Origin: Escherichia phage FH3
Sequence record: OR886155.1
Direction: 5' to 3' (one strand)
DNA: 64,000 nucleotides
Shown: piece by piece, positions 1-32,708 of the stretch
Numbering within the stretch: the first letter of the stretch is position 1
Layout of the letters: each line of letters opens with the position of its first letter
Notes under the pieces: generated by a model
The model's input: the letters and a program-made list of their open reading frames with translations, nothing else
What the model was told of the DNA's origin: nothing
Database searches by the model: none
Position numbers and translations under genes: made by a program

Positions 1-56
1 TCCATGTCATCATCGTCATCTACTTCACCGCCACCAAAACAACTCATACAGGCTCC

Positions 57-278
57 TTAGTAAACTAAACCTATAGCCTTTGCATCGGGCTGAGGGACTA
101 CCTTTGCGCTAGGGCGATAGCCATCCACTGAACCATTCCAAAGGTTGACACAGGTAATATACCCATCGTCTATGATGTCTGTTTTAATCCAGAAGTGTTT
201 ATCATGACCAAAAACACTTCCGTTTGGCAGCGTGGACAGTTCAGCGGTTTTAAGTGACTGCTTAGAGTCTAGTTTCAT
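57..278 (-). CDS. small early protein, member 1 of a five-copy paralog family
   Basis: ORF track; shares ...G(S/D)VF...FW(I/L)...D...RPS..V(V/M)P(Q/R)PD with ORF 3307-3525 and the G-x-VF core with ORFs 3526-4293. Confidence 0.4.
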   Translation of the reverse strand: MKLDSKQSLKTAELSTLPNGSVFGHDKHFWIKTDIIDDGYITCVNLWNGSVDGYRPSAKVVPQPDAKAIGLVY

Positions 279-535
279 AATAACCTCAATTATCGTAGCA
301 TGTATTCCAATACATGTAGTTAACGTACGTTCTCGGTTTGATTCCGTACATGATGAAGTGAGTCTTCTTGATCCTTTCCTTCAGCGTGTAATAAAGGCCA
401 TCACTGAAGTTACCAATCTTTACTTGGAAGCGTAAGGAGCGAGCATCCATTCGAAGCATGGAGATTAGCTGTACCCTACTACCTCCAGCCATCTCTTCAA
501 GAAGCTTCTTTGTATTCCAATAATGAGCTGTCATA

Positions 536-817
536 TTACCACTCCTTACCGGTTGTTGTTACAGAACCACCACACCACTGTGCATCTGACAAGGTTTTAG
601 TTTCCTCATCTACTGCTGCACCGTTCAGGCATGAGATACCACTGTAACGCATATCAATTTCACCAGAAGGAACCTTCTCACCTTTGTGCCAGCGAGAAAC
701 ACAAACACCTTCCACTGCTACTGCACACCATCCATCAGGACGGCTCTGTACGCAGCCTGTAAGGGCTATGCAGACAAGGAAGATACATATTAAGGATATT
801 ACACCACCCCATGACAT
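536..817 (-). CDS. small lipoprotein (possible superinfection-exclusion type)
   Basis: Internal Met of ORF 536-874 begins MSWGGVISLICIFLVCIALTGC: hydrophobic signal peptide ending in lipobox L-T-G-C; GGAGGTG 7 nt upstream of this ATG; listed start at 874 is probably too far upstream. Confidence 0.45.
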   Translation of the reverse strand: MSWGGVISLICIFLVCIALTGCVQSRPDGWCAVAVEGVCVSRWHKGEKVPSGEIDMRYSGISCLNGAAVDEETKTLSDAQWCGGSVTTTGKEW

Positions 818-837
818 AACACACCTCCAAGAGCCTC

Positions 838-926
838 TAGCGAGGATGACAGGGTTCGAACCTGCATACTCCAATTACTTCTTTAACGACCGCTTAGAAG
901 GCGGGGAAGATACATCCTCGCTAGAA
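838..926 (-). other. tRNA-like structured element (not a canonical tRNA)
   Basis: Minus strand: 9-bp helix GCGAGGATG/CATCCTCGC closing a GCAGG-TTCGAAC-CCTGT T-arm-like hairpin and a CCGC-CTTCTAA-GCGG hairpin; no D-arm could be placed. Confidence 0.25.
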
Positions 927-930
927 GCTC

Positions 931-1371
931 TTATTTATTATTGAAACCCTTGCTCCAGTAATACTTACCGTTGCAAGACCTACTACAAAAATGGTTTTGG
1001 TTTTCTTTGTGGACCTTGTTACCCCTTCTCTCAAAAGATGTGCCACAATTACTACAAATCAAAGTAATGACCACACCCTTAGGTCTGTTCTCTAAGGTCT
1101 TCTTTAAGTGATCATTTGTGCTTAGAATCTGAAGGTTAGATATCTCATCATTGGTTGGATTTTGATCAACATGATCTACCTCTTCCTCCGCAGTAAGATA
1201 CCTCCCTACATGGCAAGACATTAAATACCTTGCATAAGAGATCGTAGTCCTATCTGTGTTAGAGTTGAATAGGTCAACACGCCTCCTCCCATCCTTACTT
1301 GTCCTTAAATACCCCAACCTCCAGTCATTGATGAAGGGGTATTCCAACTCTATTTTCAATACCACCTCCAT
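931..1371 (-). CDS. HNH-family endonuclease (putative homing endonuclease)
   Basis: HVDQNPTNDEISNLQILSTNDH motif plus C-terminal CSNCG...CSRSC zinc-finger-like cluster. Confidence 0.55.
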   Translation of the reverse strand: MEVVLKIELEYPFINDWRLGYLRTSKDGRRRVDLFNSNTDRTTISYARYLMSCHVGRYLTAEEEVDHVDQNPTNDEISNLQILSTNDHLKKTLENRPKGVVITLICSNCGTSFERRGNKVHKENQNHFCSRSCNGKYYWSKGFNNK

Positions 1372-1394
1372 TGAGCTAAGGGTGCTAGATTTGT

Positions 1395-1604
1395 TTAACT
1401 AAAGATACGAATGGCTACATCGTGACCAATATGACCGGGAACTTTATGCTGTTCTATTTTCAAACAGTGTTTACAGATACGAGATACACGAGATTCTTTT
1501 CTCTCGACCGGAGTGTCTTTAGCGTGGGTGATATGTAGGTTCTCAGTGATCACCCACTCGTGTTTACATCCAGAATCTTCGGGCTTTTTCTTACGAAAGA
1601 ACAT
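1395..1604 (-). CDS. small Cys/His-rich protein, Zn-ribbon paralog C
   Basis: Internal start MFFRKKK...; CKHEW...CKHC pattern related to the two upstream ORFs. Confidence 0.35.
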   Translation of the reverse strand: MFFRKKKPEDSGCKHEWVITENLHITHAKDTPVERKESRVSRICKHCLKIEQHKVPGHIGHDVAIRIFS

Positions 1605-1612
1605 AACACCCC

Positions 1613-1777
1613 TTAGATCAGATCTGTTTTCTTGTGCAGACCACACACTTTACAGCGAGAGTAGATACGCAACCCTTGTCGCTCTCTGTCAGTAAGTTTA
1701 TTTGTGATCGTCAGTTCATAAGTATGAAGATCTTCCCACTCATGGAAATGAAAGAAGCGTTTGAACCATTTGATCAT
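1613..1777 (-). CDS. small Cys/His-rich protein, Zn-ribbon paralog B (54 aa, below ORF-track cutoff)
   Basis: My translation: MIKWFKRFFHFHEWEDLHTYELTITNKLTDRERQGLRIYSRCKVCGLHKKTDLI; near-identical architecture to paralog A. Confidence 0.35.
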   Translation of the reverse strand: MIKWFKRFFHFHEWEDLHTYELTITNKLTDRERQGLRIYSRCKVCGLHKKTDLI

Positions 1778-1786
1778 AATGATTCC

Positions 1787-1948
1787 TTAGATTACATCAC
1801 GATGACTAACATCACCACACACCTTACACTGAATAACGTAACGTGTGCCCTTGTCGTTATTCCCATCTGAATCTGTATAGACCAGAGGGTGAGTATTAAT
1901 AATCTTCCAATCATGACAATGAAAGACACGCTTTAGCCACTTGAACAT
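1787..1948 (-). CDS. small Cys/His-rich protein, Zn-ribbon paralog A
   Basis: C-terminal part of ORF 1787-2122 from internal Met: MFKWLKRVFHCHDW...CKVCG. Confidence 0.35.
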   Translation of the reverse strand: MFKWLKRVFHCHDWKIINTHPLVYTDSDGNNDKGTRYVIQCKVCGDVSHRDVI

Positions 1949-1955
1949 ATTAACC

Positions 1956-2207
1956 TCAAGCACAAGCAGGGAGAGTGATGATTTTATACTGACCATCAAA
2001 CTCACTAAACAAACCCAAGAATGTAGGACTGTACGTACCAGTGCAAACAAACTCATCAAACAATGCGTTATAGCTAGGCTTAATCTTCCAAGCCCATACA
2101 TAACCCATCTTGTCAATTGCAATGTAACGAGTGTTCAGAGGAACAGTCATCATCACACCGTCAACTTCGATCACTTTAGTGATTGGTGCAGCTTGAAAGT
2201 TTTTCAT
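1956..2207 (-). CDS. hypothetical protein
   Basis: ORF track, 83 aa, same strand as flanking genes. Confidence 0.3.
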   Translation of the reverse strand: MKNFQAAPITKVIEVDGVMMTVPLNTRYIAIDKMGYVWAWKIKPSYNALFDEFVCTGTYSPTFLGLFSEFDGQYKIITLPACA

Positions 2208-2389
2208 ACTTTACCTTTGATAAAAATATCATTACCACAGACACAGCATGAACGAACAACAGTAGCGCCACGCTGAACGATACGAACCTCTTCCTTAACC
2301 AGATTAATACGAGCACCGCAGCAAGGGGAGTTGACATAAGAGTAACCAGCTTGCGTATGTTTTATTGTTTGCTTAGACATTTTATTCAA
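2204..2389 (-). CDS. small Cys-rich protein (CC...CC)
   Basis: ORF track; SPCCG...SCCVCG pattern. Confidence 0.3.
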   Translation of the reverse strand: MNKMSKQTIKHTQAGYSYVNSPCCGARINLVKEEVRIVQRGATVVRSCCVCGNDIFIKGKV

Positions 2390-2726
2390 GATCTCTCAGT
2401 TGTTCAGCCATTTGTTCGCATTCGTTGATGCAGAAAGCTTCTGTTCTTGGAACCCCGTTAGGGTTGAACCGTGTCTTATCACCTGCATGGGCACAATCAA
2501 ATCCGATTGTATTTAAACCACTCATCTCTTCAAGGGTGTCTTGCCATGTGACACCACCATGAACACTTACATAACAAACCTCTTCCTTTCCGTTATATCC
2601 GGTGAAGTTTTTATGTTTTAAGCTGTCTGGTAGCTCTACATATCCACAAAAATGGGAGTCGTTCATGTGCATAATCACAGCACGAAGACCTGATTTAGTG
2701 ACCCAATCTTTAACCATGCGTCTCAT
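2382..2726 (-). CDS. hypothetical protein
   Basis: ORF track; start moved to internal Met because the listed start overlaps a terminator hairpin. Confidence 0.35.
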   Translation of the reverse strand: MRRMVKDWVTKSGLRAVIMHMNDSHFCGYVELPDSLKHKNFTGYNGKEEVCYVSVHGGVTWQDTLEEMSGLNTIGFDCAHAGDKTRFNPNGVPRTEAFCINECEQMAEQLRDLE

Positions 2727-2770
2727 ATAAGCACCTCTTGTTAGTTTAAGTAAGAGTTGTCCCTTAATTA

Positions 2771-2798
2771 AAACAACAAAGGCCACCCGAAGGCAGCC
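2771..2798 (-). terminator. rho-independent terminator (minus strand)
   Basis: Minus-strand hairpin GGCTGCC-TTCG-GGTGGCC followed by U-rich tract; near-copy at 50101-50128. Confidence 0.4.
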
Positions 2799-3306
2799 TT
2801 TTATTTGTTAACTGTTATACGTCCAACCACCTTGCTTGTTACGAATGGCTGACATTGCATGAATCCAAAAGCCTTCCAGTTTCAGAGCACCGTTAGCTAC
2901 TGCATCCATACGTTCAGGGCGGTTCATACGTTTGGTTGATACTTTCATACCTATCTCTCTTTGTTAGTGGAGGCATTATTGCCAGTTGATATAAGGAATA
3001 GCCCTAGTCAGTAGACTAATCCTGACCGCGTACTCATTGCCGACCTTCTCTGCCTAAGAGTTCAGGTTCTAGAGCTATCTCTTATTCCAACTGGTGAAGA
3101 CTCCCTACCCCTAGGAAGTCTCCTGAATCCCAAACTAATACGTACCCCTACATATCAGAAAGTCTTTCGAAAATTAACAGGTTTTAGTCTAGCACCGGAT
3201 GTTCGAGCAAGCTCTCCCTAGCGGTGTGGCATATGCCTGAATTAATAAGTTAATGAGGAACACCCTCACATAGCCCTCTGATAAACACAAGGGCTATAAG
3301 TCGGTG

Positions 3307-3525
3307 TTACTTTTGAGTCAAATACAAATCAGGGCGAGGCATAACAGTGGTTGATGGATTGAAATTACCAACATAACCAGTGCTTAGATTGGCAGCCCTG
3401 CGTAGTCCATTAGAGAGATCATCATCTAGCATCAGCCAGAATTTTTGATCATAAGAGAAAACATCTCCCCCTTTAAGATCTTCCACATTTGCATATTTAG
3501 GAGTCTCAACTACTTTAATTTCCAT
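3307..3525 (-). CDS. small early protein, paralog family member 2
   Basis: VEDLKGGDVF...FWLMLDDD...PRPD; clear similarity to ORF 57-278. Confidence 0.45.
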   Translation of the reverse strand: MEIKVVETPKYANVEDLKGGDVFSYDQKFWLMLDDDLSNGLRRAANLSTGYVGNFNPSTTVMPRPDLYLTQK

Positions 3526-3783
3526 CTACTTACCCTTGTTGGTAATAATAACATCATGAAGAAGAACAATCTTGCTTTTCGAGCTAAGCTTAAGGACTTG
3601 CTTATTTGTCAGACTGAGGACGACACAACCACCATCAGAAGGCTTGGTCTCTTCAATCTGTGGGGTAAATAGCTGAACAACCATGTAGAAATCTGCTCGT
3701 GTTTCCCTGATTTGGAATACATCTCCAAGTTTGAGATCACCAACACACAAAGACGGTTCATTTACTTCAAGATTAATCTTCAT
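3526..3783 (-). CDS. small early protein, paralog family member 3
   Basis: VGDLKLGDVF core; abuts neighbours. Confidence 0.4.
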   Translation of the reverse strand: MKINLEVNEPSLCVGDLKLGDVFQIRETRADFYMVVQLFTPQIEETKPSDGGCVVLSLTNKQVLKLSSKSKIVLLHDVIITNKGK

Positions 3784-4009
3784 CTTTAGCCTCTATATTG
3801 GTTATGTGGAGATCGCTGCGTACTTGGCAAACTTCATCTCGTTTAAAAGGCATGAGCTTTCCAGTTACCACATCAACACAGTTGACATAGTTATCTGCGT
3901 ATAATGTGTCAGTTCTAATGTAAAGGGATTCTTTACGCTCAAACAGAACCCCCGGCTTCATGTTATTTAAGCGAAGCATTGTACGATCGGATTTAATATT
4001 AACTTTCAT
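3773..4009 (-). CDS. small early protein, paralog family member 4
   Basis: LNNMKPGVLF core; overlaps neighbour by a few nt. Confidence 0.4.
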   Translation of the reverse strand: MKVNIKSDRTMLRLNNMKPGVLFERKESLYIRTDTLYADNYVNCVDVVTGKLMPFKRDEVCQVRSDLHITNIEAKDED

Positions 4010-4011
4010 CT

Positions 4012-4293
4012 TTAATCCACCTTATTGGTAAGTCGAGCATTATCAACTACCTGAACAACAGTATCTTTTCTCAACATTGTTATTCTATCCGAAGTGAGAT
4101 CTACTACTACCCTTTCATCAGACTTCCAACTAGCTGAATAAACGGTTGAGGAATCTAGCTTTACTGTAAGATATAATTTATTTTTAGGTGGCACAGTTTC
4201 AAAAACACTTCCCACCTTCAGATCTTTCAGCTGCTTGACTACAGGGGCTGTATTAATATCATGCTTCATTGTTAATCTCCTGCTGCTTAGCAA
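4012..4293 (-). CDS. small early protein, paralog family member 5
   Basis: LKDLKVGSVF core. Confidence 0.4.
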   Translation of the reverse strand: MLSSRRLTMKHDINTAPVVKQLKDLKVGSVFETVPPKNKLYLTVKLDSSTVYSASWKSDERVVVDLTSDRITMLRKDTVVQVVDNARLTNKVD

Positions 4294-4555
4294 TAGCTAC
4301 TCGCAAGTCTTCATTAGCACGAGCAAGGCGTAATACTTCATTGTTGAGGCTCTGAAGACGCTTGTTTCTATCTTCAACTTGCATAATAAGATCATTAAGT
4401 ATTACTTTAACTTTCTCATTATACATCTCATCCACTCGGACTAGAGATTTATACATTCTTTCCCAGCTTGCTGCTTTGTTTCTGAGAACAATAAATCCTA
4501 TAACGCTGATAATTAAACAGCTTACAAAAAGGAATTTATATACTTCTAAAGTCAT
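4259..4555 (-). CDS. membrane-anchored coiled-coil protein
   Basis: N-terminal hydrophobic segment (FLFVSCLIISVIGFIVL) then heptad-like charged region. Confidence 0.35.
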   Translation of the reverse strand: MTLEVYKFLFVSCLIISVIGFIVLRNKAASWERMYKSLVRVDEMYNEKVKVILNDLIMQVEDRNKRLQSLNNEVLRLARANEDLRVAIAKQQEINNEA

Positions 4556-4755
4556 ATTATTTTACCCTTTATCAGAGATTAAAAGTAATATTATTTAAGT
4601 AAGTTATATTTAGTAAACTTATTTTCTAAGAAATTTTCAAAGGGTCTATATACAGAGCATTACTCATAGTCCCAGAATACTACCATCTTTTTCAATAAAT
4701 TTACTAAGTGGTTGGTTTATAAAGGAATTTAGTTTGTCAAATCTGGCACTAGTGA

Positions 4756-5145
4756 TTATTCCCTAGAGCTATTATCGAACACTAAATCACCACAATACAT
4801 AGGATTGGCATACCATTTTGGCACCCCTTCGCTCTTACTCTGAAAGTAAGTCCCACTATACAGCGGAACATAATTCTTCTTAAGGGCACGTTTAGCTAAC
4901 CGCTCGCTCTCTCCAATGGCTTGCTTAGTCATCGGATTTTTATCACGAAGCAGCTTTACATAACGTTTATAAGGTTTCTCCTGTTTTAATAGTACCGGAA
5001 TCCACTCAAACTGGTTCTTTTGTCTTATCACCTGTTCAGCGGTCAGTTTTCGTTGGGCCATTCTATTTATCACGGTATCCGCAACTAAAGCCTTACATGC
5101 GGTTGGCTGATTCCCTGCCTCATAATAAATAGTCAATGTCAACAT
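4756..5145 (-). CDS. hypothetical protein
   Basis: ORF track, 129 aa. Confidence 0.35.
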   Translation of the reverse strand: MLTLTIYYEAGNQPTACKALVADTVINRMAQRKLTAEQVIRQKNQFEWIPVLLKQEKPYKRYVKLLRDKNPMTKQAIGESERLAKRALKKNYVPLYSGTYFQSKSEGVPKWYANPMYCGDLVFDNSSRE

Positions 5146-5192
5146 TAGCTGGGCCGTTGTTATCAGAACTTGCTACCTCCTGTTTTACGGGC

Positions 5193-5220
5193 ATAAAAAA
5201 GCCCCAGCCGTAGCCGGGGC
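5193..5220 (-). terminator. candidate rho-independent terminator (minus strand)
   Basis: GCCCC...GGGGC hairpin (5201-5220) followed on minus strand by UUUUUU (plus-strand AAAAAA at 5195-5200). Confidence 0.35.
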
Positions 5221-5531
5221 AAACCTGAAAGCAACACATGACCGTTGCTATAAATACACTCGCAAATGCACTTACAGCAACGCAAAAAGCCGCTCAAAGG
5301 CGGCTATGCGGAAGCTTCAAATGGGGAGAGGGCACGACGCTACAGAAAGAGCGTCATAGTACTAAAAAGAGAGGCTATTGGAGAGGTTACTTATTGCCTT
5401 CCTTAATGCCTTGTTTTCTTGTTTAACCAATTCGTTTTCTTCTTGCAAGGATGCTACCAGATGGACCAGAACATCAACTACTGCATCACCTTGCCGCATC
5501 TCTCTGACTTTATTTAGAATCTCTGAATAAA

Positions 5532-5975
5532 TCATTTTACCCTCGCCTCTTTGATGGGGTCAATGTATTTCTCAACGCCCCATTTATGTTTACTATCTGC
5601 GTAGAAAACATCAGGCGCACACTGACTTGTCTTAGGGAATGCTTGCGGGTCTTTCGTGCTACCTTTAAACTTCTGCTTACCACGGGTGCGACCATTACAG
5701 AAGATTTCTAACTTCTTCTCTTCTTCTGTTTTAGCGCCCCCGCTCTGTAACAAAGAACGTTTATGATCGGCTAACAATAACGCATCAGCACGATGAACAC
5801 GATGGCCTACACGCTTTGCCACACTAGAAGGAATATGGGATTCAGCCTCAGCCTTTGCAGCACGACGTTTTAAACTACGCTTACTAACGTGATTAGTTGC
5901 CTTCGGTTTCTCTTTCTCCAGTTCAGAGATAGCAAAACAACGCCCGCCCTTCATGCTGATTTTAGATTTAGCCAC
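5532..5975 (-). CDS. basic hypothetical protein
   Basis: ORF track; K/R-rich, possibly nucleic-acid binding. Confidence 0.35.
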   Translation of the reverse strand: MAKSKISMKGGRCFAISELEKEKPKATNHVSKRSLKRRAAKAEAESHIPSSVAKRVGHRVHRADALLLADHKRSLLQSGGAKTEEEKKLEIFCNGRTRGKQKFKGSTKDPQAFPKTSQCAPDVFYADSKHKWGVEKYIDPIKEARVK

Positions 5976-6250
5976 AATCTTATTCCTTTTAGTGATAAAT
6001 TATATCGGGCAAGCCCATCAAGGTGACAGGCTTGAACAAATAACTTAATCGAGTAAACTAAATGACTTCCAACTGCGTAGCAGGATTGTACCATCATCCA
6101 TAGCCACGCATAACTTTAACAGCTTCTTGTTAGCACTACTCACCGTTGTAATTCGTCCGGTTGTACATTTACCTTTATTGCTATAAAGATAAACCACACG
6201 ACGGCCTAACAAACGAGATGGCGCTTCCTTAAATTCTGAAATGTTAGTGA

Positions 6251-6475
6251 TCATGATGCTTGATACCTTTGAATGTGTTCAATACGGGTTGATTGAGCAA
6301 ATGACGCTTTAACAGCCATTTTCCTAACTTCTTCTTTACGCTGGTTAGTGTGTACAGTATCCCAATGTTTGTTATCACGTTGGCGCTGTAATATCTTACT
6401 ACATTTGCGATGGTTTCCCGTGCTGCGATGTTTCTCACAAATAGGACACTTGCCAAAATTACTACTGAATATCAT
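6251..6475 (-). CDS. small basic Cys-containing protein
   Basis: ORF track; CPICEKH...HRKC cluster; the overlapping alternative frame 6244-6456 is judged less likely. Confidence 0.3.
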   Translation of the reverse strand: MIFSSNFGKCPICEKHRSTGNHRKCSKILQRQRDNKHWDTVHTNQRKEEVRKMAVKASFAQSTRIEHIQRYQAS

Positions 6476-6699
6476 TTTCTCAATCCCAGCTTTCTTAAGA
6501 TACGGCCTAACGTTGTTTCTTGCGTGATAATATAACTGATCGCTTCACGTTCCAGCGTTTCAATCTTCATTGGCGACGGATACCATTCACCGGTAATAAC
6601 ACATTTACATTCAACGCCATATTTTTTAGATAGGCGGTAATGTTGACCGTTGACAAGATTCCGATAAATCGTGGTATGCGTAATTAACATGATCATCAC
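6472..6699 (-). CDS. hypothetical small protein
   Basis: ORF track; abuts neighbours. Confidence 0.3.
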   Translation of the reverse strand: MMIMLITHTTIYRNLVNGQHYRLSKKYGVECKCVITGEWYPSPMKIETLEREAISYIITQETTLGRILRKLGLRK

Positions 6700-6801
6700 C
6701 TTTGATTAGATTCTTTGATTAATGCACTGAATCAATGCACTGATAAAAGAAAAGGCGCTACCCGTTAAGATAGCGCCTTATGTTTATTCGAATTGTCCTA
6801 C

Positions 6802-7710
6802 TTATGCCGCTTGGCGTGCTGCCATAATCTCAGCTGCCTTGCGCAATACTTCTTCCTCTTCTGCTTTCGCCGCTTGTTCGGTACGGGTAGCAACCGTTGA
6901 AGAGATACGACCTCGCAGACTTTCTAACTTCTCCTGCATAGCTGCAACAGTCTTTTCCATTTCATCAGCGTATGAATCGAGTGATTCTAATTCCTTGCTT
7001 GATGCGTTCATCAGATAATCATCTGAGATCGCTACCGTCGAGGCCGTTACTTTCTTGATGAGTGAATCAAAGGACTTTTTAACTTTGCCGACTTCTTCAC
7101 TCAAAGCAATGGTGTTATCACTGGTAGCGCCGTTGCGCTCATCAGCCAGTAATTTGGCTTCAATACGGATTGCATTCAAGCGTTCAACTAAAGCGTAAAT
7201 ATCCTGATTAAAATCTTCCTTGTTTTTCGCCGGAATTTGCAGGTGTGCCGCCACGTTGTCGTTGCAACCTTTGTAGAAGTTAGGATTATCCACTTCAATT
7301 GCACGACCTAAAGCAAAGTTTTCGAAAGCATTTGACCAGCGAGCACGATTTTGTTCCATTTTGGCCTTAATTTGCGCTTCTTTCGCGTCTTCTTTAGCTT
7401 TCGCCTCACCTTCCAGATTAATCCACTTTTTACGACCATTTGCCGCATCGGTGTTAAACTTGATAGGAGTTAAGAAAGTAATTGCAGTGGCAATCACATC
7501 CATATCACGAAAACGTTCGGTTAACAGAAAATCAACCGCCGACTGCAATACATCTAACTTCTTGCCGTTACTGCGGAAGTGCTGCAAGTGCCCTAACAGA
7601 AAATTAGAAACATCTTGTTTGATCGCCGCGTTATTGCTACGAATGTTGTTAGCCAGTGCGTTAAAACCAGATTCGTTAACCAGATTAAAGATCTTAGCCA
7701 TGATATTCAC
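6802..7710 (-). CDS. hypothetical early protein (coiled-coil C-terminus)
   Basis: 302-aa ORF, first gene downstream (minus sense) of the 1.8 kb non-coding region. Confidence 0.4.
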   Translation of the reverse strand: MNIMAKIFNLVNESGFNALANNIRSNNAAIKQDVSNFLLGHLQHFRSNGKKLDVLQSAVDFLLTERFRDMDVIATAITFLTPIKFNTDAANGRKKWINLEGEAKAKEDAKEAQIKAKMEQNRARWSNAFENFALGRAIEVDNPNFYKGCNDNVAAHLQIPAKNKEDFNQDIYALVERLNAIRIEAKLLADERNGATSDNTIALSEEVGKVKKSFDSLIKKVTASTVAISDDYLMNASSKELESLDSYADEMEKTVAAMQEKLESLRGRISSTVATRTEQAAKAEEEEVLRKAAEIMAARQAA

Positions 7711-9484
7711 CTTTCAATTGTAAGGGCGCTATTGCCCCGCTCTCTATGAGCTTGTTTAAGTCACTATTAACTTATCTCTAACCACTCACTTTTTAAGTAG
7801 TTACAGGTAAGTGAGGCGGTCTTATCAGGAGTTAACCTTGCCGCCTCCTTATCCGTGATGTTTCATCTGGTATCTTTAATTAGTCGCTATAAACGAAGCC
7901 GACCTGATAGCGATGATCAATCATCACAATAAGGCTATGCGTCCGACTCTATTTAATTACATTGCTGTAACCGTCGGCAATATCGTTTACTTTGTTTTCG
8001 CTCCCGCTTATCCTTTGTGCCAACTCCTGATCGCTAACCATCGCCCACTACGGGAGGCTATTGCGAAAAGGTCATTGACCGCCTAATATTCCGGCGTTTT
8101 ATATCTTTCAGCAGGTTTACTACATAAACCGACTATGTACTTTCGTCATAAGACGAATATCAAGCCGTTCACATCGTAAACGTTCGCATTAAACCTTATT
8201 GTTAAATAGCAATTTGCCACTTTTTAACCACTCCCCGCCGCCCTCAATTGGGCGTTAATTCTTCGGACTTGCCTACCCTGATTAACTTCTTTCACTGTAG
8301 CACCTTGTTAGCGATGACCGCCGCTACCCTTAACCGTGGGCGATTAGCTTAAGCCGTTGCGTGTACTCAATGAATCCGTTTATCAGTGGTGACTTTTCCA
8401 GTAAGGGAATGTAAGACTGTTTACCCTGATATTTTAGGGAGTCTTACACCGTTTTATCTGGTATGCTTTCCGATGGTTATTATCATCAAGCATATTCAAC
8501 CGATATATGGGAATGTTTAAATTATTAAAGAGCGGTAAATCTATCAGTGTGCTTTCTCACACTATGCAACTGTTAGCCGTTGTTACGCTTTTCACTGAAG
8601 CGATGATTTGCTTAGTGAGTGCTCATTATGAATCATGTTGTTTTCGCTGTCAACCGCTTTTTAATCTTTTTTCGTCGTTCCCGCTATTGGGAGGATATAT
8701 CAATCAGCTTTATTTGATTGAAGATTAAGCGGTGATGCTTAACTTATGATTCATATTGTTAAAGAGCGTTAGCCTTTTAGAGTGTCTGCTAATCACTGTC
8801 ACATTTAAGGCTTACTTATTCATTAACGGGCCGCCTACACCCGAACTACTCGCTGCACTATGTGCCACTTTTCCCGCGATACGTTGATTTGGGAACTTGT
8901 TAGCGGTGTATCTGCTAACTTGTGGTTAGTATGGACTACTTTAACCACGTTTGCAACTCTTTTTATCATCTTCTTTTAATTCCTTTCCCTTATCTCGCGT
9001 GAATCTATGCGAAAGGGCAAGATGATAAGTTTTTAAAGAGCGGGATTTTTTAAGTCATCGCTGACTATGCTCACTATATATCAGGCTGTTTTCGGTGTCA
9101 ATACTCTTTTTGAGAATATTTTCACTTTCTAACCTGATTTTTAAAGAGCGGGGCAATTTCTTGCCTTGTATGTTTTACATCGTACCCGATGAAATGAAGT
9201 ATACGCTAATCAGATGAGGTTGCAATAGGGTAAAGCAAATTATTTTAAACTTTTTCACTATAGGAAGGTAAAAGAGCAGGCGCACGCGATACATCATAGA
9301 AAACGGCTTGTAAAGCGATATTTAGCGGCCTAAAACGCATCACAACGAGCTAAAAGGGAGTAAGGCATACACTCACCTCATAAAAGAGAAAAGCCTCACT
9401 AGGAGGCTTACAGGAAGGATTAGAGAATCAGATAGATTATGACCATAGGCATGACTACGGCACAATACAGAAGAAAGATTAAGC
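7711..9484. repeat. 1.8 kb ORF-free region with reiterated motifs
   Basis: TTAAAGAGCG at 8525, 8759, 9033 and 9141; two hairpin + CCGT..TGTTT(C/T)ATCTGGTAT modules near 7820-7885 and 8400-8478; CACTATAGG at 9256-9264. Confidence 0.45.
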
Positions 9485-9850
9485 CTATGGATTTACACAT
9501 TGACCGTTACCGGATGCCATTTCATTCATAGACTCATCAAAGAGCGTCAACGATGAGCGCATCAAGTGATCGACCGTAATTTGCTTACCAGTGGTTTCAT
9601 TTACCAGTTGAATAGTTTTATCATATGATTGTACATGATCGAAATCATTTACATGTAAAATAATAACTTTAGGTGACTTTTTACCAGTGTCATAGTTTTC
9701 TACAATATAGGTGCACTGTAAACCGTCAACCGTAGCAGGGGAGAACGTTGCAGCCTTAACGCTACCCATAGCTGACAGCAGGACACCTAACAGGAGAACG
9801 ACAAGGAAGAAGCCTACAATCGTTTTAACGACGAATTTAATAAACCACAT
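9485..9850 (-). CDS. membrane-anchored or secreted protein
   Basis: N-terminal hydrophobic stretch FVVKTIVGFFLVVLLLGVLLSAMG. Confidence 0.4.
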   Translation of the reverse strand: MWFIKFVVKTIVGFFLVVLLLGVLLSAMGSVKAATFSPATVDGLQCTYIVENYDTGKKSPKVIILHVNDFDHVQSYDKTIQLVNETTGKQITVDHLMRSSLTLFDESMNEMASGNGQCVNP

Positions 9851-10038
9851 AGCAATTAACCTTTAATATTGAGATTAAGCAAATCGAGAGCGGCAACAAT
9901 CAGTAAATAGTTTAAAGAAATGAAGCCCACGACAAACAAAAACAAAAACAGCACAACAGACCTTAAAGAACGTAAGAATAAAGCATGTCAGCGACGAATA
10001 ACGCCACTGTAACAACGAACAAGCAACGCCAAAAATAA

Positions 10039-10311
10039 TCATTCTTCTTCATTGCTACCCTCGCCAAAAAATGCTACGCTGATTTGTTCCACTTCTTCCA
10101 GCGACAGAAGAATCCCACGTTGGGCTAGATACTTCCCAACAGTTAGATAATCTTGCACCAAGCAGACAATAGGAAAGCGTATGTTTTGTATCTCACCTTT
10201 AGAAAGAAAAGACAAATAACCAACGTCGGTTGACTCATCAAAGGACAATGTAACGCCACCGTAATTATGCGTGTCAATTAATGCAATAGTTTCATTTCCC
10301 ATCAGTATCAC
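10039..10311 (-). CDS. small protein, paralog trio member C
   Basis: THNYGG motif shared with ORF 10318-10476. Confidence 0.35.
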   Translation of the reverse strand: MILMGNETIALIDTHNYGGVTLSFDESTDVGYLSFLSKGEIQNIRFPIVCLVQDYLTVGKYLAQRGILLSLEEVEQISVAFFGEGSNEEE

Positions 10312-10317
10312 CCTTAA

Positions 10318-10476
10318 TTAGCCCATGATTGAGCAGGTTAGCCAGCGACAAGCCACCGTCTTAATATTATCGCCGACAATAAACAAGATTAGACACTTGT
10401 CAGAGTCATCAGTATATGAGAAATCAATCCCACCATAATTGTGAGTCGGAATAGTAAAGCTATGCTCTTTAGTCAT
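10318..10476 (-). pseudogene. small ORF, paralog trio member B, possibly frameshifted
   Basis: My translation MTKEHSFTIPTHNYGGIDFSY... (52 aa); the conserved C-terminal GGLSLANLL motif is encoded out of frame. Confidence 0.3.
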
Positions 10477-10720
10477 GTATCAATCTTTCACTTAACAGGT
10501 TAGCCAGTGACAAATCACCTTTGATATAGATGTCACGAAAATCAGCACGGGTAATTTCAAGGCCAGCAAATTTCAACCATTTTTTAGCTGACTGAAAATC
10601 CATTTTGCAAAAAGTGATAATAGGCACGATAAGCTGACCATCAAGCGTATTAAACATGATAGCAGTATCGCCAACAAAACAAGAAAAGTCGTTAGATAAT
10701 TCAACTTCTTTAATAGCCAT
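10469..10720 (-). CDS. small protein, paralog trio member A
   Basis: C-terminus GDLSLANLLSERLIHD; about 30 nt of its 3' end recurs at 10326-10355. Confidence 0.35.
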   Translation of the reverse strand: MAIKEVELSNDFSCFVGDTAIMFNTLDGQLIVPIITFCKMDFQSAKKWLKFAGLEITRADFRDIYIKGDLSLANLLSERLIHD

Positions 10721-10756
10721 TATTTATACTCCCAAAAGATTGGCAAATTAATTTAT

Positions 10757-30600: not shown

Positions 30601-30660
30601 AACAGTAATGCTGCTATCAATGGGTTAACGATAGAGTTTGCTGTTGGCGGACGGAGATAA
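27649..30660 (+). CDS. large tail protein with tandem Ig-like (BIG2-type) domains
   Basis: 1003 aa; repeated TxxVxPxxA...W(S/T)SSN...ATV...G.ATITA modules in the N-terminal third. Confidence 0.5.
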   Translation: MALYPIKSLGAVGVIADQAPTDLAPNAFTNAINARFVEQRVFKTGGNAPLSYVDEDKDLTPLSFISMPFDYYSAGNSFLIVGTNKKLYKLTDESLTDISRKVATVTKKASANIKIYPVVSRITPKESTISMNFNQTKSLEVTISPEDANNPELVWSVSNSSYGQITVDPTDSKKASLTSLNKEGNLVVTVQTKDESVSAQIAVNIIDGDSGIFLSQDTLTVRKGGNTTITAVTGKTPVSWSTTNGSIISITPNANTLTAVLVANGEGTATVTADNGTKTASCIVNVIPQIDSITLSQTDVTINRGVQYILTATVSPTNAPNKNITWTSSNPNIATVSGTSTEATITAITAGFTEITATTQEGNRTAVCTVRVDLAGRMMRTSLMAESSTEPDAPEVVEDVVVPESEEVLYFASPSSGIDTTGMSEGNSFYDYSNVDDMEGFARASLFATPLDSVTLDVVSASLDVGEEIVITATASPEGDYSYLWSVDKTGYVSTTSVTGKSIKLTALRKGEINITCSVSQMTQRDYDAFDDYPWYHAVISNCAVATTHYETPQVKEFESEHFTDLPGWGEQTVVDSDGNPSVKKFNWKCERVRSFNNRLFALNMRESNASGVTTNYPLRLRWSNFANENKAPTLWDDFAYDRLVTSDLASNIVGQTEALENGYAGYIDLADSNGSLIDILPLKDYLFVYTEFETYIGSPTNNTYQPLMFKKLFNDSGILAPECAVEVEGSHFVVTQNDVILHNGATKKSIASNRVKNMLINEICLVNPLATRVHLHQDKKEVWILYVGPGEPKESYACTKAAVWNYEFDTWSFRTIPYAQCIGLVDPPVLERGPIWADFQEITWDDPSIKELVWRKDATNFRQRITIVGSFLRGFYQVDVGALDYFYDRLNDAVIEKPLEMRLERTGIDFDNVTNEWNQKHVNRFRPQTTGSGTYTFEAGGSQFSNEYGHPHTSKTYTIGVDRHVSVRLNHPYLFYNVIDNDVNSNAAINGLTIEFAVGGRR

Positions 30661-31672
30661 CAACAAGGGGCTTCGTGCCCCTTTTATTGTTTTGGAGGAA
30701 CTTATGGGTGCAGGTGGTTTTCGTAAGAACACTGGTCGTAATAACACCACACTCCCGTACAACGTTGGGTTTCTCAATAATGTACAGGACACAGAAACAT
30801 ATAACGTAGCCGTATATGACGAGCTACAGAAAGTTAGTACAGCTACTAACCAAATGTTCCAAGCTATTGATGAGATTCACGATGAGATTGATGTTCGTAT
30901 CAAAGCTCTTCATGCGATGAATCTACAATTTGATGAGCTTGAGAATAGAGTTACTACAGAGATAGAGACAGCTATTGCAGATATCCAAACTCAAATGGGG
31001 AACTTATCCACTGAAGATATTTGGGATAATTCTGTTCAACCTCCTGTAAAATTAGAAAGCACTGTATCTGGCTTTAAAACTAGTATTGAAGGTAACACAA
31101 CTAAGATTCAAACGGTAGAAGGGATTGTTAACGACCAAGGTCAAGAGATCGCTTTAGTTCAGACAGAGATTCAAAATATCAACGGAAGCCTTTCTCAGTA
31201 TATGAAACTCTCTGAGTATGAAGCTACGTGGGGTGTTAACTCTACAGTCAACGGAAAATATGCTGGGGTCAAGCTAACTAACAACGGAACAAACAGTCAA
31301 TTCCAAGTAACAGCTAACAAATTTATTGTTGGTGATGGCAGCTCCGGTAACACTCCTTTTGTTTTTGAAAACGGTAGAGCGAAGATGGAGTTTGCTGACA
31401 TAAAGAATGTCAACATTACAACTGCTATGATTGCTGACGCTAGGATACAGTGGGCACAAATTGATAATGTCAACATCACAAACGCACAGATTCAGAGTTT
31501 GTCTGCTAATAAAATTACCGCTGGTTCTATGAGTGGTACAAACTGGAGATTGACTGTTGGTGGTGATTTTGTTATGGGTGGTACTGGTGGTTCTCAGCTA
31601 TGGATGAATGGGAACAGGATAGATTTTTATGATGGAAGTGGTACACTCCGTATCAGAATAGGGAGTTGGTAA
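30638..31672 (+). CDS. tail fibre-like structural protein
   Basis: Coiled-coil N-terminus then ...NITTAMIADARIQWAQIDNVNITNAQIQSL... repeats; true start may be the internal Met near 30704. Confidence 0.4.
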   Translation: MLLADGDNNKGLRAPFIVLEELMGAGGFRKNTGRNNTTLPYNVGFLNNVQDTETYNVAVYDELQKVSTATNQMFQAIDEIHDEIDVRIKALHAMNLQFDELENRVTTEIETAIADIQTQMGNLSTEDIWDNSVQPPVKLESTVSGFKTSIEGNTTKIQTVEGIVNDQGQEIALVQTEIQNINGSLSQYMKLSEYEATWGVNSTVNGKYAGVKLTNNGTNSQFQVTANKFIVGDGSSGNTPFVFENGRAKMEFADIKNVNITTAMIADARIQWAQIDNVNITNAQIQSLSANKITAGSMSGTNWRLTVGGDFVMGGTGGSQLWMNGNRIDFYDGSGTLRIRIGSW

Positions 31673-31673
31673 T

Positions 31674-32708
31674 ATGGCATATGGAATATGGACAACGCCA
31701 GTTGGACCGGGACCAGCTTCTCCGGCTGAGATTTTTATTGATAGTAATTCCACTTTCCCTCAATTCAAGAATAGGGTCAGTGGTAATTACAACTTTAATG
31801 GAGGTAGTAGAGATTTCCCTATTTCTGGATGGGATGGCTCAGGCCAAATTGTTGTAGTCCCAACCGGCTCTTTGTGTTGGCAATGGGAAGTCCCTCCTAA
31901 CCTTGTCCCTGATGTGTATGTTGTAAATAACATAAGTATTGTGAATAACTCAACTTTTAGGGTTAGCATAAATATGAATCCCGGAAGTAACCCATTGTTT
32001 GACGTGGCTTTCAATGTATATCAAATATGGCCTAGAGCTAATAGAAACTACGGGATAACCTTTTCAAACACAGCTGATTACTTCTCTATATCAGATGCTG
32101 GGGTTGTTGGTCAATGTATTTGGGCTTGGGAAGGAAACATTAATGGTTCTATGCAAATACCAGCCATCAGTGGTTTTGATATGTCAAGAGCTTCTGTGTT
32201 TGCTAACTGGTCTGGAGGGCAAGGTTTACTGTACGATGCAGGGAGTCGTAATATCAGAGTTTATCAAAACAGAACATACGACAATGGAAACAACAACCAA
32301 ACAGGTACAATCAACAATGTGAGAGTTGCAGTGTTCTGTGATGGGGCTGGTGTTCCTACTCACAATGGTGGATTGAACATCTACTCACCTAATGGTTCTC
32401 AATGTGTATTCTCTACTTACAGAACACCTTTTATGGTTGATCGCTTTATGGCTATGAGTGGAGGAGACACTGGACTATCCTATCCTATGATTCCTCTGAC
32501 GAATGGGGCTGGTTCAATTAGAGGCCAAGCTGGTAGTTGGTATTTCCAACACGCAAGATCTCATATAATGAACGGGTCTTCTTTTGGCACAGGGTATGGT
32601 CGATATATGTTCCAGTGGAGTAGAAACTACGATATGGGTGGTGGTGGGGCTATCTCCCTTCAGGTTCCAGTACTAGATGCTAGGAAGATTTTTAGAAGCA
32701 TACAATAA
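31674..32708 (+). CDS. virion structural protein
   Basis: ORF track, 344 aa, in tail gene block. Confidence 0.35.
   Translation: MAYGIWTTPVGPGPASPAEIFIDSNSTFPQFKNRVSGNYNFNGGSRDFPISGWDGSGQIVVVPTGSLCWQWEVPPNLVPDVYVVNNISIVNNSTFRVSINMNPGSNPLFDVAFNVYQIWPRANRNYGITFSNTADYFSISDAGVVGQCIWAWEGNINGSMQIPAISGFDMSRASVFANWSGGQGLLYDAGSRNIRVYQNRTYDNGNNNQTGTINNVRVAVFCDGAGVPTHNGGLNIYSPNGSQCVFSTYRTPFMVDRFMAMSGGDTGLSYPMIPLTNGAGSIRGQAGSWYFQHARSHIMNGSSFGTGYGRYMFQWSRNYDMGGGGAISLQVPVLDARKIFRSIQ

What the first reader, a model, noticed from the sequence alone, without database searches (positions are those of the whole stretch)
536..817. Early-region lipoprotein as a superinfection-exclusion candidate
The small protein has a lipobox (LTGC) and a Cys-rich mature domain. 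Some phages encode small lipoproteins that mask their own receptor. A signal-peptide protein (10757-11248) and a membrane protein (9485-9850) lie in the same early block.
Basis: inference. Interest (0 to 1): 0.35.

Follow-up and report, generated by a model that had tools for sequence, protein, structure and literature searches.

The report
Kuravirus lipoprotein that likely blocks LptD
This small early phage gene encodes an outer-membrane lipoprotein related to Rtp45, a protein shown to stop further phage attack by clamping the LPS exporter LptD from inside. The same genome also carries a relative of the LptD-binding tail protein, so these podoviruses may use LptD as their still-unknown final receptor.

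Summary
ORF 536-817 (minus strand, 93 aa) has a Shine-Dalgarno site, a hydrophobic signal peptide, the lipobox LTGC, and four more cysteines in a 72-aa mature part. This pattern is unique in the window.

The window is a Kuravirus (phiEco32/SU10-like podovirus), 99.7% identical to Escherichia phage 1-6af.

The protein is a full-length member of Pfam PF24052 (E 1.7e-36). It matches PDB 9RPS chain D (E 7.9e-16). That chain is Rtp45, the superinfection-exclusion lipoprotein of siphophage Rtp, solved bound to the periplasmic face of LptDE. The Rtp45 disulfide cysteines and the hairpin motif are conserved. It has not been tested experimentally for this protein.

New here: ORF 31674-32708 lies 31 kb away, next to the tail needle gene, and corresponds to SU10 gp19, which has no assigned role. 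It belongs to the same family and fold as the LptD-binding receptor protein of phage Oekolampad (9RPT_C: sequence E 4.5e-10; Foldseek E 2.2e-11, TM 0.81). The needle itself has a lambda-J-like tip domain.

Kuraviruses thus carry a whole LptD recognition-and-exclusion module. I found no paper that links them to LptD. Main caveat: gp19 was not detected in SU10 virion proteomics.

The parts
536..817 (-). Coding sequence of the lipoprotein precursor (93 aa, stop codon included); Rtp45-family (PF24052) superinfection-exclusion candidate
   Evidence: ORF list; Pfam PF24052 E 1.7e-36, 124.5 bits against a cut-off of 27; PDB 9RPS_D (Rtp45) E 7.9e-16; family alignment
755..817 (-). Signal peptide, residues 1-21 (MSWGGVISLICIFLVCIALTG); predicted cleavage by signal peptidase II before C22
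   Evidence: Read from the sequence; aligned with the signal peptides and lipoboxes of 20 family members. Cleavage and lipidation are inferred, not shown
752..763 (-). Lipobox L19-T20-G21-C22. C22 is the predicted lipidated first residue of the mature protein. The +2 residue is Val, not Asp, which predicts outer-membrane sorting by the Lol pathway
   Evidence: Sequence; the Cys is invariant in the family alignment; the pattern is unique in the window. The +2 sorting rule is established E. coli lipoprotein knowledge
638..742 (-). Conserved core, residues 26-60 (RPDGWCAVAVEGVCVSRWHKGEKVPSGEIDMRYSG). C31 and C39 correspond to the Rtp45 C30-C38 disulfide. The stretch after C39 is probably the beta-hairpin that enters the LptD lumen in Rtp45
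   Evidence: HMMER alignment to 9RPS_D, with 21 of 35 positions identical by my count; C31, C39, G29 and G60 are invariant across 21 family members; structural description of Rtp45 in PMC12685063
824..828 (-). Shine-Dalgarno sequence GGAGG, 6 nt upstream of the ATG
   Evidence: Read; conserved in relatives in the DNA alignment
31674..32708 (+). Homologue of the LptD-binding receptor-binding protein (DUF6453 / phrog_1265; 344 aa). By position it is SU10 gp19. It is the predicted cognate partner whose binding the lipoprotein would block
   Evidence: tblastn with the Bas01 RBP, E 4.8e-11; PDB 9RPT_C E 4.5e-10; Pfam PF20051 E 8e-25; phrog_1265 full length, E 1.8e-99, the same PHROG as the Bas01 RBP; AF2 model pLDDT 84.8; the only significant Foldseek hit is 9RPT_C, E 2.2e-11, TM 0.81 normalised to the target
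30638..31672 (+). Tail needle protein (SU10 gp18 equivalent) with a lambda-J-like tail-tip fibre domain in its C-terminal half. It is the probable docking site for the gene product immediately downstream
   Evidence: Pfam PF09327 Phage_Tail_Tip E 4e-26; BLASTP to residues 903-1149 of the Bas01 J-like tail tip protein, E 2e-6; SU10 gp18 is the tail needle (PMC9509320). Docking of gp19 is inferred
8625..9101 (-). Spacer with sigma70-like promoters (9101-9073 TTGACA-17-TATAGT; 8653-8625 TTGACA-17-CATAAT). These are the probable early promoters of the long leftward transcription unit that contains the lipoprotein gene
   Evidence: Consensus scan, which did not find more promoter-like sites overall than shuffled sequence. 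The position matches the three sigma70 promoters described between SU10 CDS120 and 121 (PMC4281155). Inferred by synteny

Best explanation
The gene encodes an Rtp45-family outer-membrane lipoprotein made early in infection. After Sec export, lipidation at C22 and Lol transport to the inner leaflet of the outer membrane, it binds the periplasmic rim of the LptD barrel. It then pushes its disulfide-braced beta-hairpin up into the LptD lumen. This displaces extracellular loop 4 and holds LptD in a shape that DUF6453-type receptor-binding proteins cannot bind. The infected cell and its debris after lysis therefore stop adsorbing LptD-dependent phages. Those phages would include the Kuravirus's own progeny, if its gp19 homologue (31674-32708) is an LptD-binding tip protein, as well as competing Rtp-like and Dhillonvirus siphophages. 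What is shown: gene, lipobox, family membership, conserved cysteines and core motif, and the presence of the RBP homologue in the same genome. What is inferred: lipidation, LptD binding, exclusion, early timing, and the virion location of gp19.
For: The protein is a full-length PF24052 member (124.5 bits against a cut-off of 27). It matches Rtp45 in PDB 9RPS_D at E 7.9e-16, with 21 of 35 core positions identical. The lipobox Cys and the two disulfide cysteines are invariant across 21 diverse family members. The Rtp45 mechanism was solved by cryo-EM (PMC12685063). In siphoviruses the family sits beside the LptD-type RBP: Bas01 and ESCO41. Among characterised phages the DUF6453 RBP family is specifically tied to LptD (bioRxiv 10.64898/2026.04.02.716166; PMC8594841). 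The window itself encodes a DUF6453 protein directly after the needle gene, and its predicted fold matches only the LptDE-bound Oekolampad RBP in the PDB. The three genes occur in similar numbers of Kuravirus-like records: 97 for the lipoprotein, 91 at 60% identity or more plus ECBP2-type variants for gp19, and 98 for the needle. The gene lies in the early block by synteny. T5 Llp, the classic analogue, is also expressed early (title of the reference listed).
Against: There is no functional data for this protein. gp19 (CDS19) was not among the 34 proteins detected by mass spectrometry of SU10 particles, although CDS16, 17, 18 and 20-24 were. It is also never mentioned in the SU10 cryo-EM study. 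Reported Kuravirus-resistant mutants lost O-antigen (ES17), and the BASEL study found only O-antigen dependence; no lptD mutants have been reported. However, lptD is essential and is missed by knock-out screens. gp19 is only 22-27% identical to siphovirus RBPs, so its specificity could have drifted. The lipoprotein gene is 31 kb from gp19 rather than adjacent, although Klebsiella Weberviruses also hold the two about 10 kb apart (MH633486). The signal peptide lacks a positive n-region. The AF2 model of the lipoprotein is uninformative (pLDDT 51.9).
Confidence: 0.7

Rival explanations
1. Exclusion of competitors only. The lipoprotein blocks LptD as in the best explanation, but the Kuravirus itself does not use LptD. 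Its gp19 would have another role or another target, and the benefit would be keeping LptD-dependent siphophages out of the infected cell.
For: gp19 was not detected in SU10 virions. Only O-antigen dependence and loss-of-O-antigen resistance have been reported for these phages. The lipoprotein gene is unlinked to gp19 and sits in a mosaic early region beside a homing endonuclease. LptD-dependent siphophages are common in the same sewage and gut habitats.
Against: It would be a coincidence for one genome to hold a J-like tip, a DUF6453 RBP homologue with the right fold placed directly after the needle gene, and the matching exclusion lipoprotein, in about as many Kuravirus-like records each. A lytic phage with a short cycle gains little from excluding unrelated phages, compared with protecting its own progeny from debris.
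Confidence: 0.15
2. Different target or different purpose. The Kuravirus branch of the family has diverged to bind another outer-membrane protein. Or it binds LptDE mainly to alter LPS/O-antigen export, remodelling the host envelope rather than blocking a receptor.
For: The Kuravirus proteins carry an extra C-terminal segment with a second cysteine pair (C63, C82) that Rtp45 lacks. These phages depend on O-antigen, which LptDE delivers. In Rtp45 the hairpin occupies the lumen of closed LptD, which could plausibly hinder LPS passage.
Against: The core that contacts LptD in Rtp45 is the best-conserved part. The extra Cys pair also occurs in non-Kuravirus family members with ordinary MKK signal peptides (P0011, P0012, P0021). 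Existing surface LPS would not turn over within one lytic cycle (inference). No toxicity of Rtp45 co-expressed with LptDE was reported.
Confidence: 0.1
3. Lysis accessory. The protein is an outer-membrane spanin subunit (Rz1-like), a small Cys-containing lipoprotein that helps fuse the membranes at lysis.
For: It is a small lipoprotein with periplasmic cysteines, as in o-spanins (sequence).
Against: It is homologous to Rtp45, and no spanin family was matched in Pfam or PHROGs. It lies in the early block, far from the holin/endolysin genes and the Rz-like spanin gene of the close relative Bas91 (Bas91_0010/0011 and 0032). It is not embedded in or adjacent to an i-spanin gene, and it is not proline-rich.
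Confidence: 0.02

Closest known systems
Rtp45 of Escherichia phage Rtp (UniProt Q333D9; PDB 9RPS chain D) and its orthologues in LptD-targeting small siphophages (Bas01 bas01_0029, Bas18 SE protein); Pfam PF24052 Phage_lipoprotein
   Same: Homologous over the whole length. Shared features are the lipobox, the conserved RPDGWC...G.C..W..G..VP.GE.D.RY core, and the two cysteines that form the Rtp45 C30-C38 disulfide. Size is similar (mature about 6-8 kDa). Each occurs in a genome that also encodes a DUF6453 receptor-binding protein.
   Different: The host virus is a prolate-headed podovirus, not a siphovirus. The gene lies in the early block, 31 kb from the RBP homologue, rather than immediately upstream of it and next to gpJ. 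The mature protein has an extra ~15-residue C-terminal insertion with a second cysteine pair (C63/C82). The signal peptide has no basic n-region. Its function is untested.
Llp of phage T5 (lytic conversion lipoprotein blocking FhuA)
   Same: The logic is the same: a small lipoprotein expressed early binds the periplasmic side of the phage's outer-membrane receptor and changes its extracellular loops so that the RBP cannot bind (PMC9586334 as cited in PMC12685063).
   Different: No detectable sequence similarity: no Llp chain appeared in the PDB sequence search at E up to 10. The target differs (the TonB-dependent transporter FhuA) and so does the mode (long-range allostery, rather than physical displacement of loops).
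Cor of phages T1/phi80/N15 (FhuA-directed exclusion lipoprotein)
   Same: It is a small phage lipoprotein that gives exclusion at the receptor level. One siphovirus homologue of the present family is even annotated 'Cor superinfection exclusion protein' (vB_Ec-G8).
   Different: Cor is associated with FhuA-type RBP loci, which are a different, unrelated locus type. No Cor-type family was matched here. I did not compare directly with a Cor sequence.
LptD-binding RBP of phage Oekolampad (PDB 9RPT chain C) / Rtp44 / Bas01 bas01_0028; Pfam DUF6453 (applies to the partner ORF 31674-32708)
   Same: Same Pfam family and same PHROG over the full length. The predicted fold has 9RPT_C as its only significant PDB match (TM 0.81). 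It is encoded directly after a protein with a J-like tail-tip domain.
   Different: Only 22-27% identical. It is about 30 residues longer. It is carried by a podovirus with a detachable tail needle. It was not detected in SU10 virion proteomics and is annotated 'membrane protein / moron' in relatives. LptD binding is untested.

Membership tests
Rtp45 family / Pfam PF24052 Phage_lipoprotein | Whole-protein match to the family profile above the curated cut-off | tested here: met
   124.5 bits against a gathering score of 27, E 1.7e-36, profile positions 1-80 of 80; also phrog_4281, E 7.8e-36
Rtp45 family / Pfam PF24052 Phage_lipoprotein | N-terminal signal peptide ending in a lipobox with an invariant Cys | tested here: met
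   L19-T20-G21-C22 follows a 13-residue hydrophobic stretch. The Cys is invariant in the 21-sequence alignment. The pattern is unique among 540 ORF candidates in the window. The lack of Lys/Arg in the n-region is atypical.
Rtp45 family / Pfam PF24052 Phage_lipoprotein | Cysteine pair equivalent to the Rtp45 C30-C38 disulfide | tested here: met
   C31 and C39 align with Rtp45 C30 and C38 and are invariant in the family. The disulfide is described in PMC12685063. Bond formation itself was not tested.
Rtp45 family / Pfam PF24052 Phage_lipoprotein | Long beta-hairpin that inserts into the LptD lumen | tested here: inconclusive
   The sequence of the region is well conserved. AF2 places short strands at 41-44, 47-50 and 54-58, but the model is unreliable (pLDDT 51.9, pTM 0.23). 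The authors also report that AF3 mis-predicts Rtp45.
Rtp45 family / Pfam PF24052 Phage_lipoprotein | Binds LptDE at the periplasmic outer-membrane interface and prevents RBP binding and infection | not testable with these tools
   This needs co-purification or cryo-EM, plus adsorption and plating assays.
Rtp45 family / Pfam PF24052 Phage_lipoprotein | Gene adjacent to the DUF6453 RBP gene downstream of gpJ (the typical siphovirus arrangement, not strictly defining) | tested here: not met
   The two genes are 31 kb apart in the window (536-817 and 31674-32708). The adjacent arrangement is seen in Bas01 and ESCO41. Klebsiella Weberviruses also separate the two by about 10 kb (MH633486), so adjacency is not universal in the family.
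T5 Llp family | Sequence similarity to Llp | tested here: not met
   phmmer against all PDB chains at E up to 10 returned only Rtp45 and one chance hit. A FhuA-Llp structure is described in the literature, so I assume Llp chains are in the library.
o-spanin (Rz1-like) | Lipoprotein gene embedded in or adjacent to an i-spanin gene in the lysis region, with a match to a spanin family | tested here: not met
   No spanin family was matched. In the relative Bas91 the Rz-like spanin, holin and endolysin genes lie elsewhere.
DUF6453 LptD-type receptor-binding proteins (for ORF 31674-32708) | Profile match and shared fold with the LptDE-bound RBP | tested here: met
   PF20051, 88.2 bits against a cut-off of 25; phrog_1265 full length; 9RPT_C phmmer E 4.5e-10; Foldseek E 2.2e-11, probability 1.00, TM 0.81 normalised to the target, next best hit E 0.23
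DUF6453 LptD-type receptor-binding proteins (for ORF 31674-32708) | Encoded next to, and presumably carried by, a J-like tail tip protein | tested here: met
   It lies directly downstream of the needle gene. The needle has PF09327 (E 4e-26) and aligns with the C-terminal 250 residues of Bas01 J (E 2e-6). The nearest siphovirus tips are not specifically those of LptD-type phages.
DUF6453 LptD-type receptor-binding proteins (for ORF 31674-32708) | Present in the virion and binds LptD | not testable with these tools
   The literature points against easy detection. CDS19 is absent from the SU10 mass-spectrometry list, which includes its neighbours, and it is not mentioned in the SU10 structure paper.

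The most novel reading that the evidence does not exclude
Kuraviruses (phiEco32, SU10, ES17, Bas86-94 and relatives) use the essential LPS translocon LptD as their terminal receptor. The so-far unassigned gp19 (window 31674-32708) would sit on the tip of the tail needle as a DUF6453 receptor-binding protein. It would bind LptD after the fibres have engaged O-antigen, and it could trigger needle release and nozzle formation. The early lipoprotein (536-817) would be the matching exclusion factor. If so, a complete three-part recognition-and-exclusion module (J-like tip, RBP, lipoprotein) has moved between siphoviruses and podoviruses.
Probability: 0.5. Interest if true: 0.7.

Novelty: new member of a known kind. 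Interest (0 to 1): 0.55.

Why it matters
The terminal receptor of Gordonclarkvirinae is unknown. Current models assume that the fibres bind O-antigen and then some unidentified surface structure (PMC11990801, PMC9509320). This podovirus group is often isolated and is being considered for therapy.

Finding the Rtp45-type lipoprotein together with a homologue of the LptD-binding protein gives a concrete candidate, LptD. Existing reagents can test it: the lptD loop-deletion mutants, LptDE preparations, and the BASEL Kuravirus isolates.

It would assign roles to two conserved 'hypothetical' genes, one of them currently labelled 'membrane protein / moron'. It would explain what the detachable needle tip recognises. 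It would also show that receptor and exclusion modules cross between tail morphotypes.

LptD is essential and conserved, so phages that depend on it are of interest for therapy and for steering resistance.

Tried and rejected
1. AF2 model of the lipoprotein from a 10-sequence alignment gave pLDDT 51.9 and pTM 0.23. This is too poor for a fold search, so none was run. It agrees with the published remark that AF3 mis-predicts Rtp45.

2. I asked whether the needle's C-terminal domain is closest to the J tips of LptD-type siphophages. tblastn found J-like tips of assorted siphoviruses and Acinetobacter/Aeromonas phages with no visible link to LptD, so the test was uninformative.

3. NCBIfam has no model for either protein.

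4. The word-indexed protein search found only close Kuravirus homologues. The exhaustive HMMER search gave 16 representatives, all small lipoproteins except one weak multi-repeat hit (P0024), which I ignored as a likely chance match.

5. The longer TTG-started ORF (536-874) was rejected, because it overlaps the tRNA-like element and lacks a ribosome-binding site and conservation.

6. The spanin reading was rejected.

7. T5 Llp homology was rejected.

8. The phiEco32 transcription paper (PMC3275717) is not held. The early classification therefore rests on SU10 and on secondary descriptions.

9. I did not test allele co-variation between the lipoprotein and gp19. The two bind opposite faces of LptD, so none is expected. 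The few paired values seen (ECBP2 64.8%/42.5%; MLP3 63.0%/72.2%) show no clear pattern.
Full report
**What the window is**

Bases 1-3000 are 99.7% identical to Escherichia phage 1-6af. About 98 phage records of 67-79 kb match the region at 80% identity or more. Those with taxonomy are Gordonclarkvirinae, genus Kuravirus: the phiEco32/SU10-like prolate podoviruses. The window therefore covers most of a Kuravirus genome. It holds a leftward block of small early genes at about 1-11,300 and the rightward structural genes from about 12,000 onward.

**The observation**

- ORF 536-817 (minus strand) encodes 93 aa: MSWGGVISLICIFLVCIALTGCVQSRPDGWCAVAVEGVCVSRWHKGEKVPSGEIDMRYSGISCLNGAAVDEETKTLSDAQWCGGSVTTTGKEW.
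- A GGAGG site lies at 824-828, 6 nt before the ATG.
- Residues 6-18 are hydrophobic, and L19-T20-G21-C22 is a canonical lipobox.
- The mature 72-aa part has cysteines at 22, 31, 39, 63 and 82.
- A six-frame scan for a lipobox preceded by a hydrophobic stretch found this ORF and no other among 540 ATG-started candidates of at least 50 aa.
- One unusual point is the absence of Lys/Arg in the n-region. MSWGGV is nevertheless invariant in all Kuravirus copies, whereas most siphovirus relatives start MKK.

**What it is**

The protein is a full-length member of Pfam PF24052 'Phage lipoprotein family' (E 1.7e-36, 124.5 bits against a cut-off of 27) and of phrog_4281.

A sequence search of all PDB chains gave one real hit, 9RPS chain D ('Phage lipoprotein'), at E 7.9e-16. 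[quoted passage not shown] According to that paper:

- Rtp45 sits at the periplasmic outer-membrane interface of closed LptD, between LptE and LptM.
- It has a C30-C38 disulfide.
- It sends a long, partly beta-stranded hairpin up the LptD lumen.
- It displaces extracellular loop 4 by up to 20 Å, so that the receptor-binding protein (RBP) cannot bind.

In the HMMER alignment the window protein's C31 and C39 match Rtp45 C30 and C38. Also, 21 of 35 positions in the core RPDGWC...VPSGEIDMRYSG are identical (my count).

In an alignment of 21 diverse family members, the invariant columns are the lipobox Cys, G29, C31, C39 and G60. These members came from the exhaustive HMMER search of 1.84 billion representatives and from phage genomes.

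The Kuravirus proteins add a C-terminal insertion with a second cysteine pair (C63/C82). The two cysteines of this pair mostly occur together or not at all across the family, and the pair is also present in non-Kuravirus members with ordinary MKK signal peptides (P0011, P0012, P0021). I read it as a probable second disulfide (inference).

**Where the family occurs**

tblastn against 50,697 phage records found the lipoprotein in 384 records. Of these, 97 are at 60% identity or more and are Kuravirus-like. The remaining 287 are almost all small siphoviruses:

- Drexlerviridae, including Rtp-like phages, Bas01 AugustePiccard, Nouzillyvirus ESCO41 and Klebsiella Weberviruses;
- Dhillonvirus and Veterinaerplatzvirus.

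In Bas01 and ESCO41 the gene lies immediately upstream of a ~311-318-aa gene and convergent with the J-like tail tip gene. This is the 'bona fide RBP locus' that Maffei et al. tied to LptD specificity (PMC8594841). A 2026 preprint with 255 phages states that four unrelated protein families at this locus are each specifically associated with FhuA, BtuB, LptD or YncD. It also states that the accessory protein of Rtp is the exclusion factor (10.64898/2026.04.02.716166).

**The partner gene, found by following this lead**

A tblastn of the Bas01 LptD-type RBP against the window gave one significant hit: 31779-32672 (+), E 4.8e-11, covering RBP residues 28-304. The ORF is 31674-32708 (344 aa). The evidence for homology is:

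- PDB 9RPT chain C, the Oekolampad RBP bound to open LptDE, at E 4.5e-10;
- Pfam DUF6453 at E 8e-25 (the Bas01 RBP scores 2e-113 on the same family);
- phrog_1265 over its full length at E 1.8e-99, the same PHROG as the Bas01 RBP;
- an AF2 model from 30 homologues that is confident (pLDDT 84.8, pTM 0.86);
- a Foldseek search of the PDB in which 9RPT_C is the only significant match (E 2.2e-11, probability 1.00, TM 0.81 normalised to the target) and the next hit has E 0.23.

The gene order here is short tail fibre (26836-27639), nozzle (27649-30660), tail needle (30638-31672), this ORF, then transglycosylase (32718-33500). This order matches SU10 gp16, gp17, gp18, gp19 and gp20 (PMC9509320; sizes in PMC4281155 Table 2).

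The needle protein carries Pfam PF09327 'Phage_Tail_Tip' (E 4e-26). It aligns with residues 903-1149 of the 1169-aa Bas01 J-like protein (E 2e-6). All three parts of the siphovirus LptD module therefore have homologues in this podovirus: the J-like distal fibre, the DUF6453 RBP and the Rtp45-type lipoprotein. All three occur in about the same number of Kuravirus-like records: 98 for the needle, 91 at 60% identity or more plus the more divergent ECBP2 type for gp19, and 97 for the lipoprotein.

**Expression context**

In SU10, CDS69-125 are the early genes. [quoted passage not shown] In phiEco32 the early genes are likewise read leftward from four sigma70 promoters (PMC8948821).

The window shows the same layout. 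Near-consensus promoters on the minus strand lie at 11314-11287, 9101-9073 and 8653-8625, and a terminator-like hairpin lies at 9409-9391.

The neighbours of the lipoprotein gene are homologues of SU10_0102 and SU10_0106 (annotation notes of phage SGF2). The gene is therefore in the early block, about 8 kb downstream of the spacer promoters. Early timing is thus inferred by synteny, not measured. Several terminator-like hairpins lie in between.

I found nothing that connects them to this function. Their PHROGs are of unknown function or, in one case, carry a dubious 'terminase' label.

**Most likely mechanism**

The steps below are inferred, and each follows a known precedent.

1. Sec export, then lipidation and cleavage at C22.
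2. Lol-dependent transfer to the outer membrane, because the +2 residue is Val rather than Asp.
3. Docking on the periplasmic rim of LptD, with insertion of the disulfide-braced hairpin.
4. Displacement of extracellular loop 4, so that DUF6453-type RBPs can no longer bind.

The infected cell and its debris then stop adsorbing LptD-dependent phages. I put 0.7 on this reading.

Whether the phage's own progeny are among the excluded phages depends on gp19. The homology, the fold, the position after a J-like needle and the co-occurrence all argue that gp19 is an LptD-binding tip protein.

**Evidence against, and rivals**

- The Orbitrap analysis of SU10 particles detected CDS16, 17, 18 and 20-24, and even one terminase peptide, but not CDS19.
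- The SU10 cryo-EM paper never mentions gp19, in the main text or in the supplements held.
- Resistance and host-factor data for Kuraviruses point only to O-antigen. However, lptD is essential and escapes knock-out screens.
- gp19 shares only 22-27% identity with siphovirus RBPs.
- I therefore give about 0.5 to 'LptD is the Kuravirus terminal receptor'.
- The rivals are exclusion of competitors only (0.15), a diverged target or an LPS-export role (0.1), and a spanin (0.02). The spanin reading is contradicted by family matches and by gene location.

**Comparison with what is known**

The protein is a member of the Rtp45/PF24052 family by every sequence criterion I could test. The one typical feature not met is adjacency to the RBP gene. 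Klebsiella Weberviruses also separate the two genes by about 10 kb (MH633486: lipoprotein at 38470-38688, RBP at 27982-28854), so adjacency is not defining.

It works like T5 Llp, which is also an early lipoprotein that binds its receptor from the periplasmic side. It is not related to Llp in sequence, and the Rtp45 mode is physical displacement of loops rather than allostery.

**Novelty**

The lipoprotein is a new member of a known kind. In current records it is annotated 'hypothetical protein', 'putative lipoprotein' or, in one case, 'transcriptional regulator'. gp19 is labelled 'membrane protein; moron'.

In the library searched, Kuravirus or Gordonclarkvirinae co-occur with LptD only in Humolli et al. 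2025, which does not connect them. phiEco32 and LptD never co-occur. The Kuravirus genus paper mentions no lipoprotein, receptor or exclusion. The link is therefore apparently unreported, although I cannot search subscription-only literature.

**Verdict**

Interest 0.55.

Noticed in passing
window 841-919 (-): A tRNA-like element lies directly upstream of the lipoprotein gene. ARAGORN finds no tRNA anywhere in the window. The Rfam tRNA model just passes its threshold (29.7 bits against 29, E 2.4e-4). The acceptor stem, the anticodon arm (anticodon UCU, Arg) and the T arm are intact. The D arm is reduced to 4 nt, and there is a 20-nt insertion in the variable region. Relatives SGF2 and Bas91 have an ordinary 73-76-nt tRNA-Arg of different sequence at this spot, while phage 1-6af has the same odd version. 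It could be a decayed tRNA or an unusual D-armless one.
   Followed up: partly
window 931-1371 (-): An HNH homing endonuclease (phrog_14913 E 1.1e-54; Pfam HNH_3) is inserted just upstream of the tRNA-like element. It is present in some relatives (Bas91, Paul, Ptacy1532) and absent in others (SGF2). Its presence next to the altered tRNA suggests a mosaic, recombination-prone spot.
   Followed up: no
window 31674-32708 (+); relatives: The gp19 homologue is annotated 'membrane protein; moron, auxiliary metabolic gene and host takeover' in many records through the phrog_1265 label. That label also covers the experimentally verified LptD-binding RBPs of siphophages, so the PHROG annotation looks wrong for the whole family.
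   Followed up: yes
window 7750-9480 and 11250-12015: Two stretches have no long ORFs. The first holds near-consensus sigma70 promoters on the minus strand (9101-9073, 8653-8625). A further promoter (11314-11287) lies in the second stretch. A terminator-like hairpin lies at 9409-9391. This matches the early promoter layout described for SU10 and phiEco32.
   Followed up: partly
window 9485-9850 (-): This 121-aa protein has an N-terminal membrane or signal segment. It matches phrog_13168, which is labelled 'terminase / head and packaging' (E 2.6e-80). That label is implausible for a small early membrane protein and is probably a mis-annotation.
   Followed up: no
window 57-278, 3307-3525, 3526-3783, 3773-4009, 4012-4293 (all -): Several neighbouring small early ORFs of 72-93 aa look like paralogues. 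They share motifs of the type 'L(K/N)xGDVF...(K/D)xxFW/Y...' near the N-terminus (translations). ORF 57-278 matches three related PHROGs. This may be a tandemly expanded early gene family of unknown function.
   Followed up: no
phage records MH633486.1 and PP738769.1: Klebsiella Weberviruses carry both the Rtp45-type lipoprotein and a DUF6453 RBP, about 10 kb apart. This suggests that LptD may also be their terminal receptor in Klebsiella.
   Followed up: no
Cronobacter phage phiES15, Salmonella phages SPN3UB and Oslo, Escherichia phage mEp515; Acinetobacter podophages XC38, At2, nACB1: DUF6453 homologues also occur in temperate or lambdoid phages of Cronobacter, Salmonella and E. coli. The Kuravirus needle tip domain has relatives in ~76-80-kb Acinetobacter phages. 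The tip/RBP module therefore seems to be widely exchanged.
   Followed up: no
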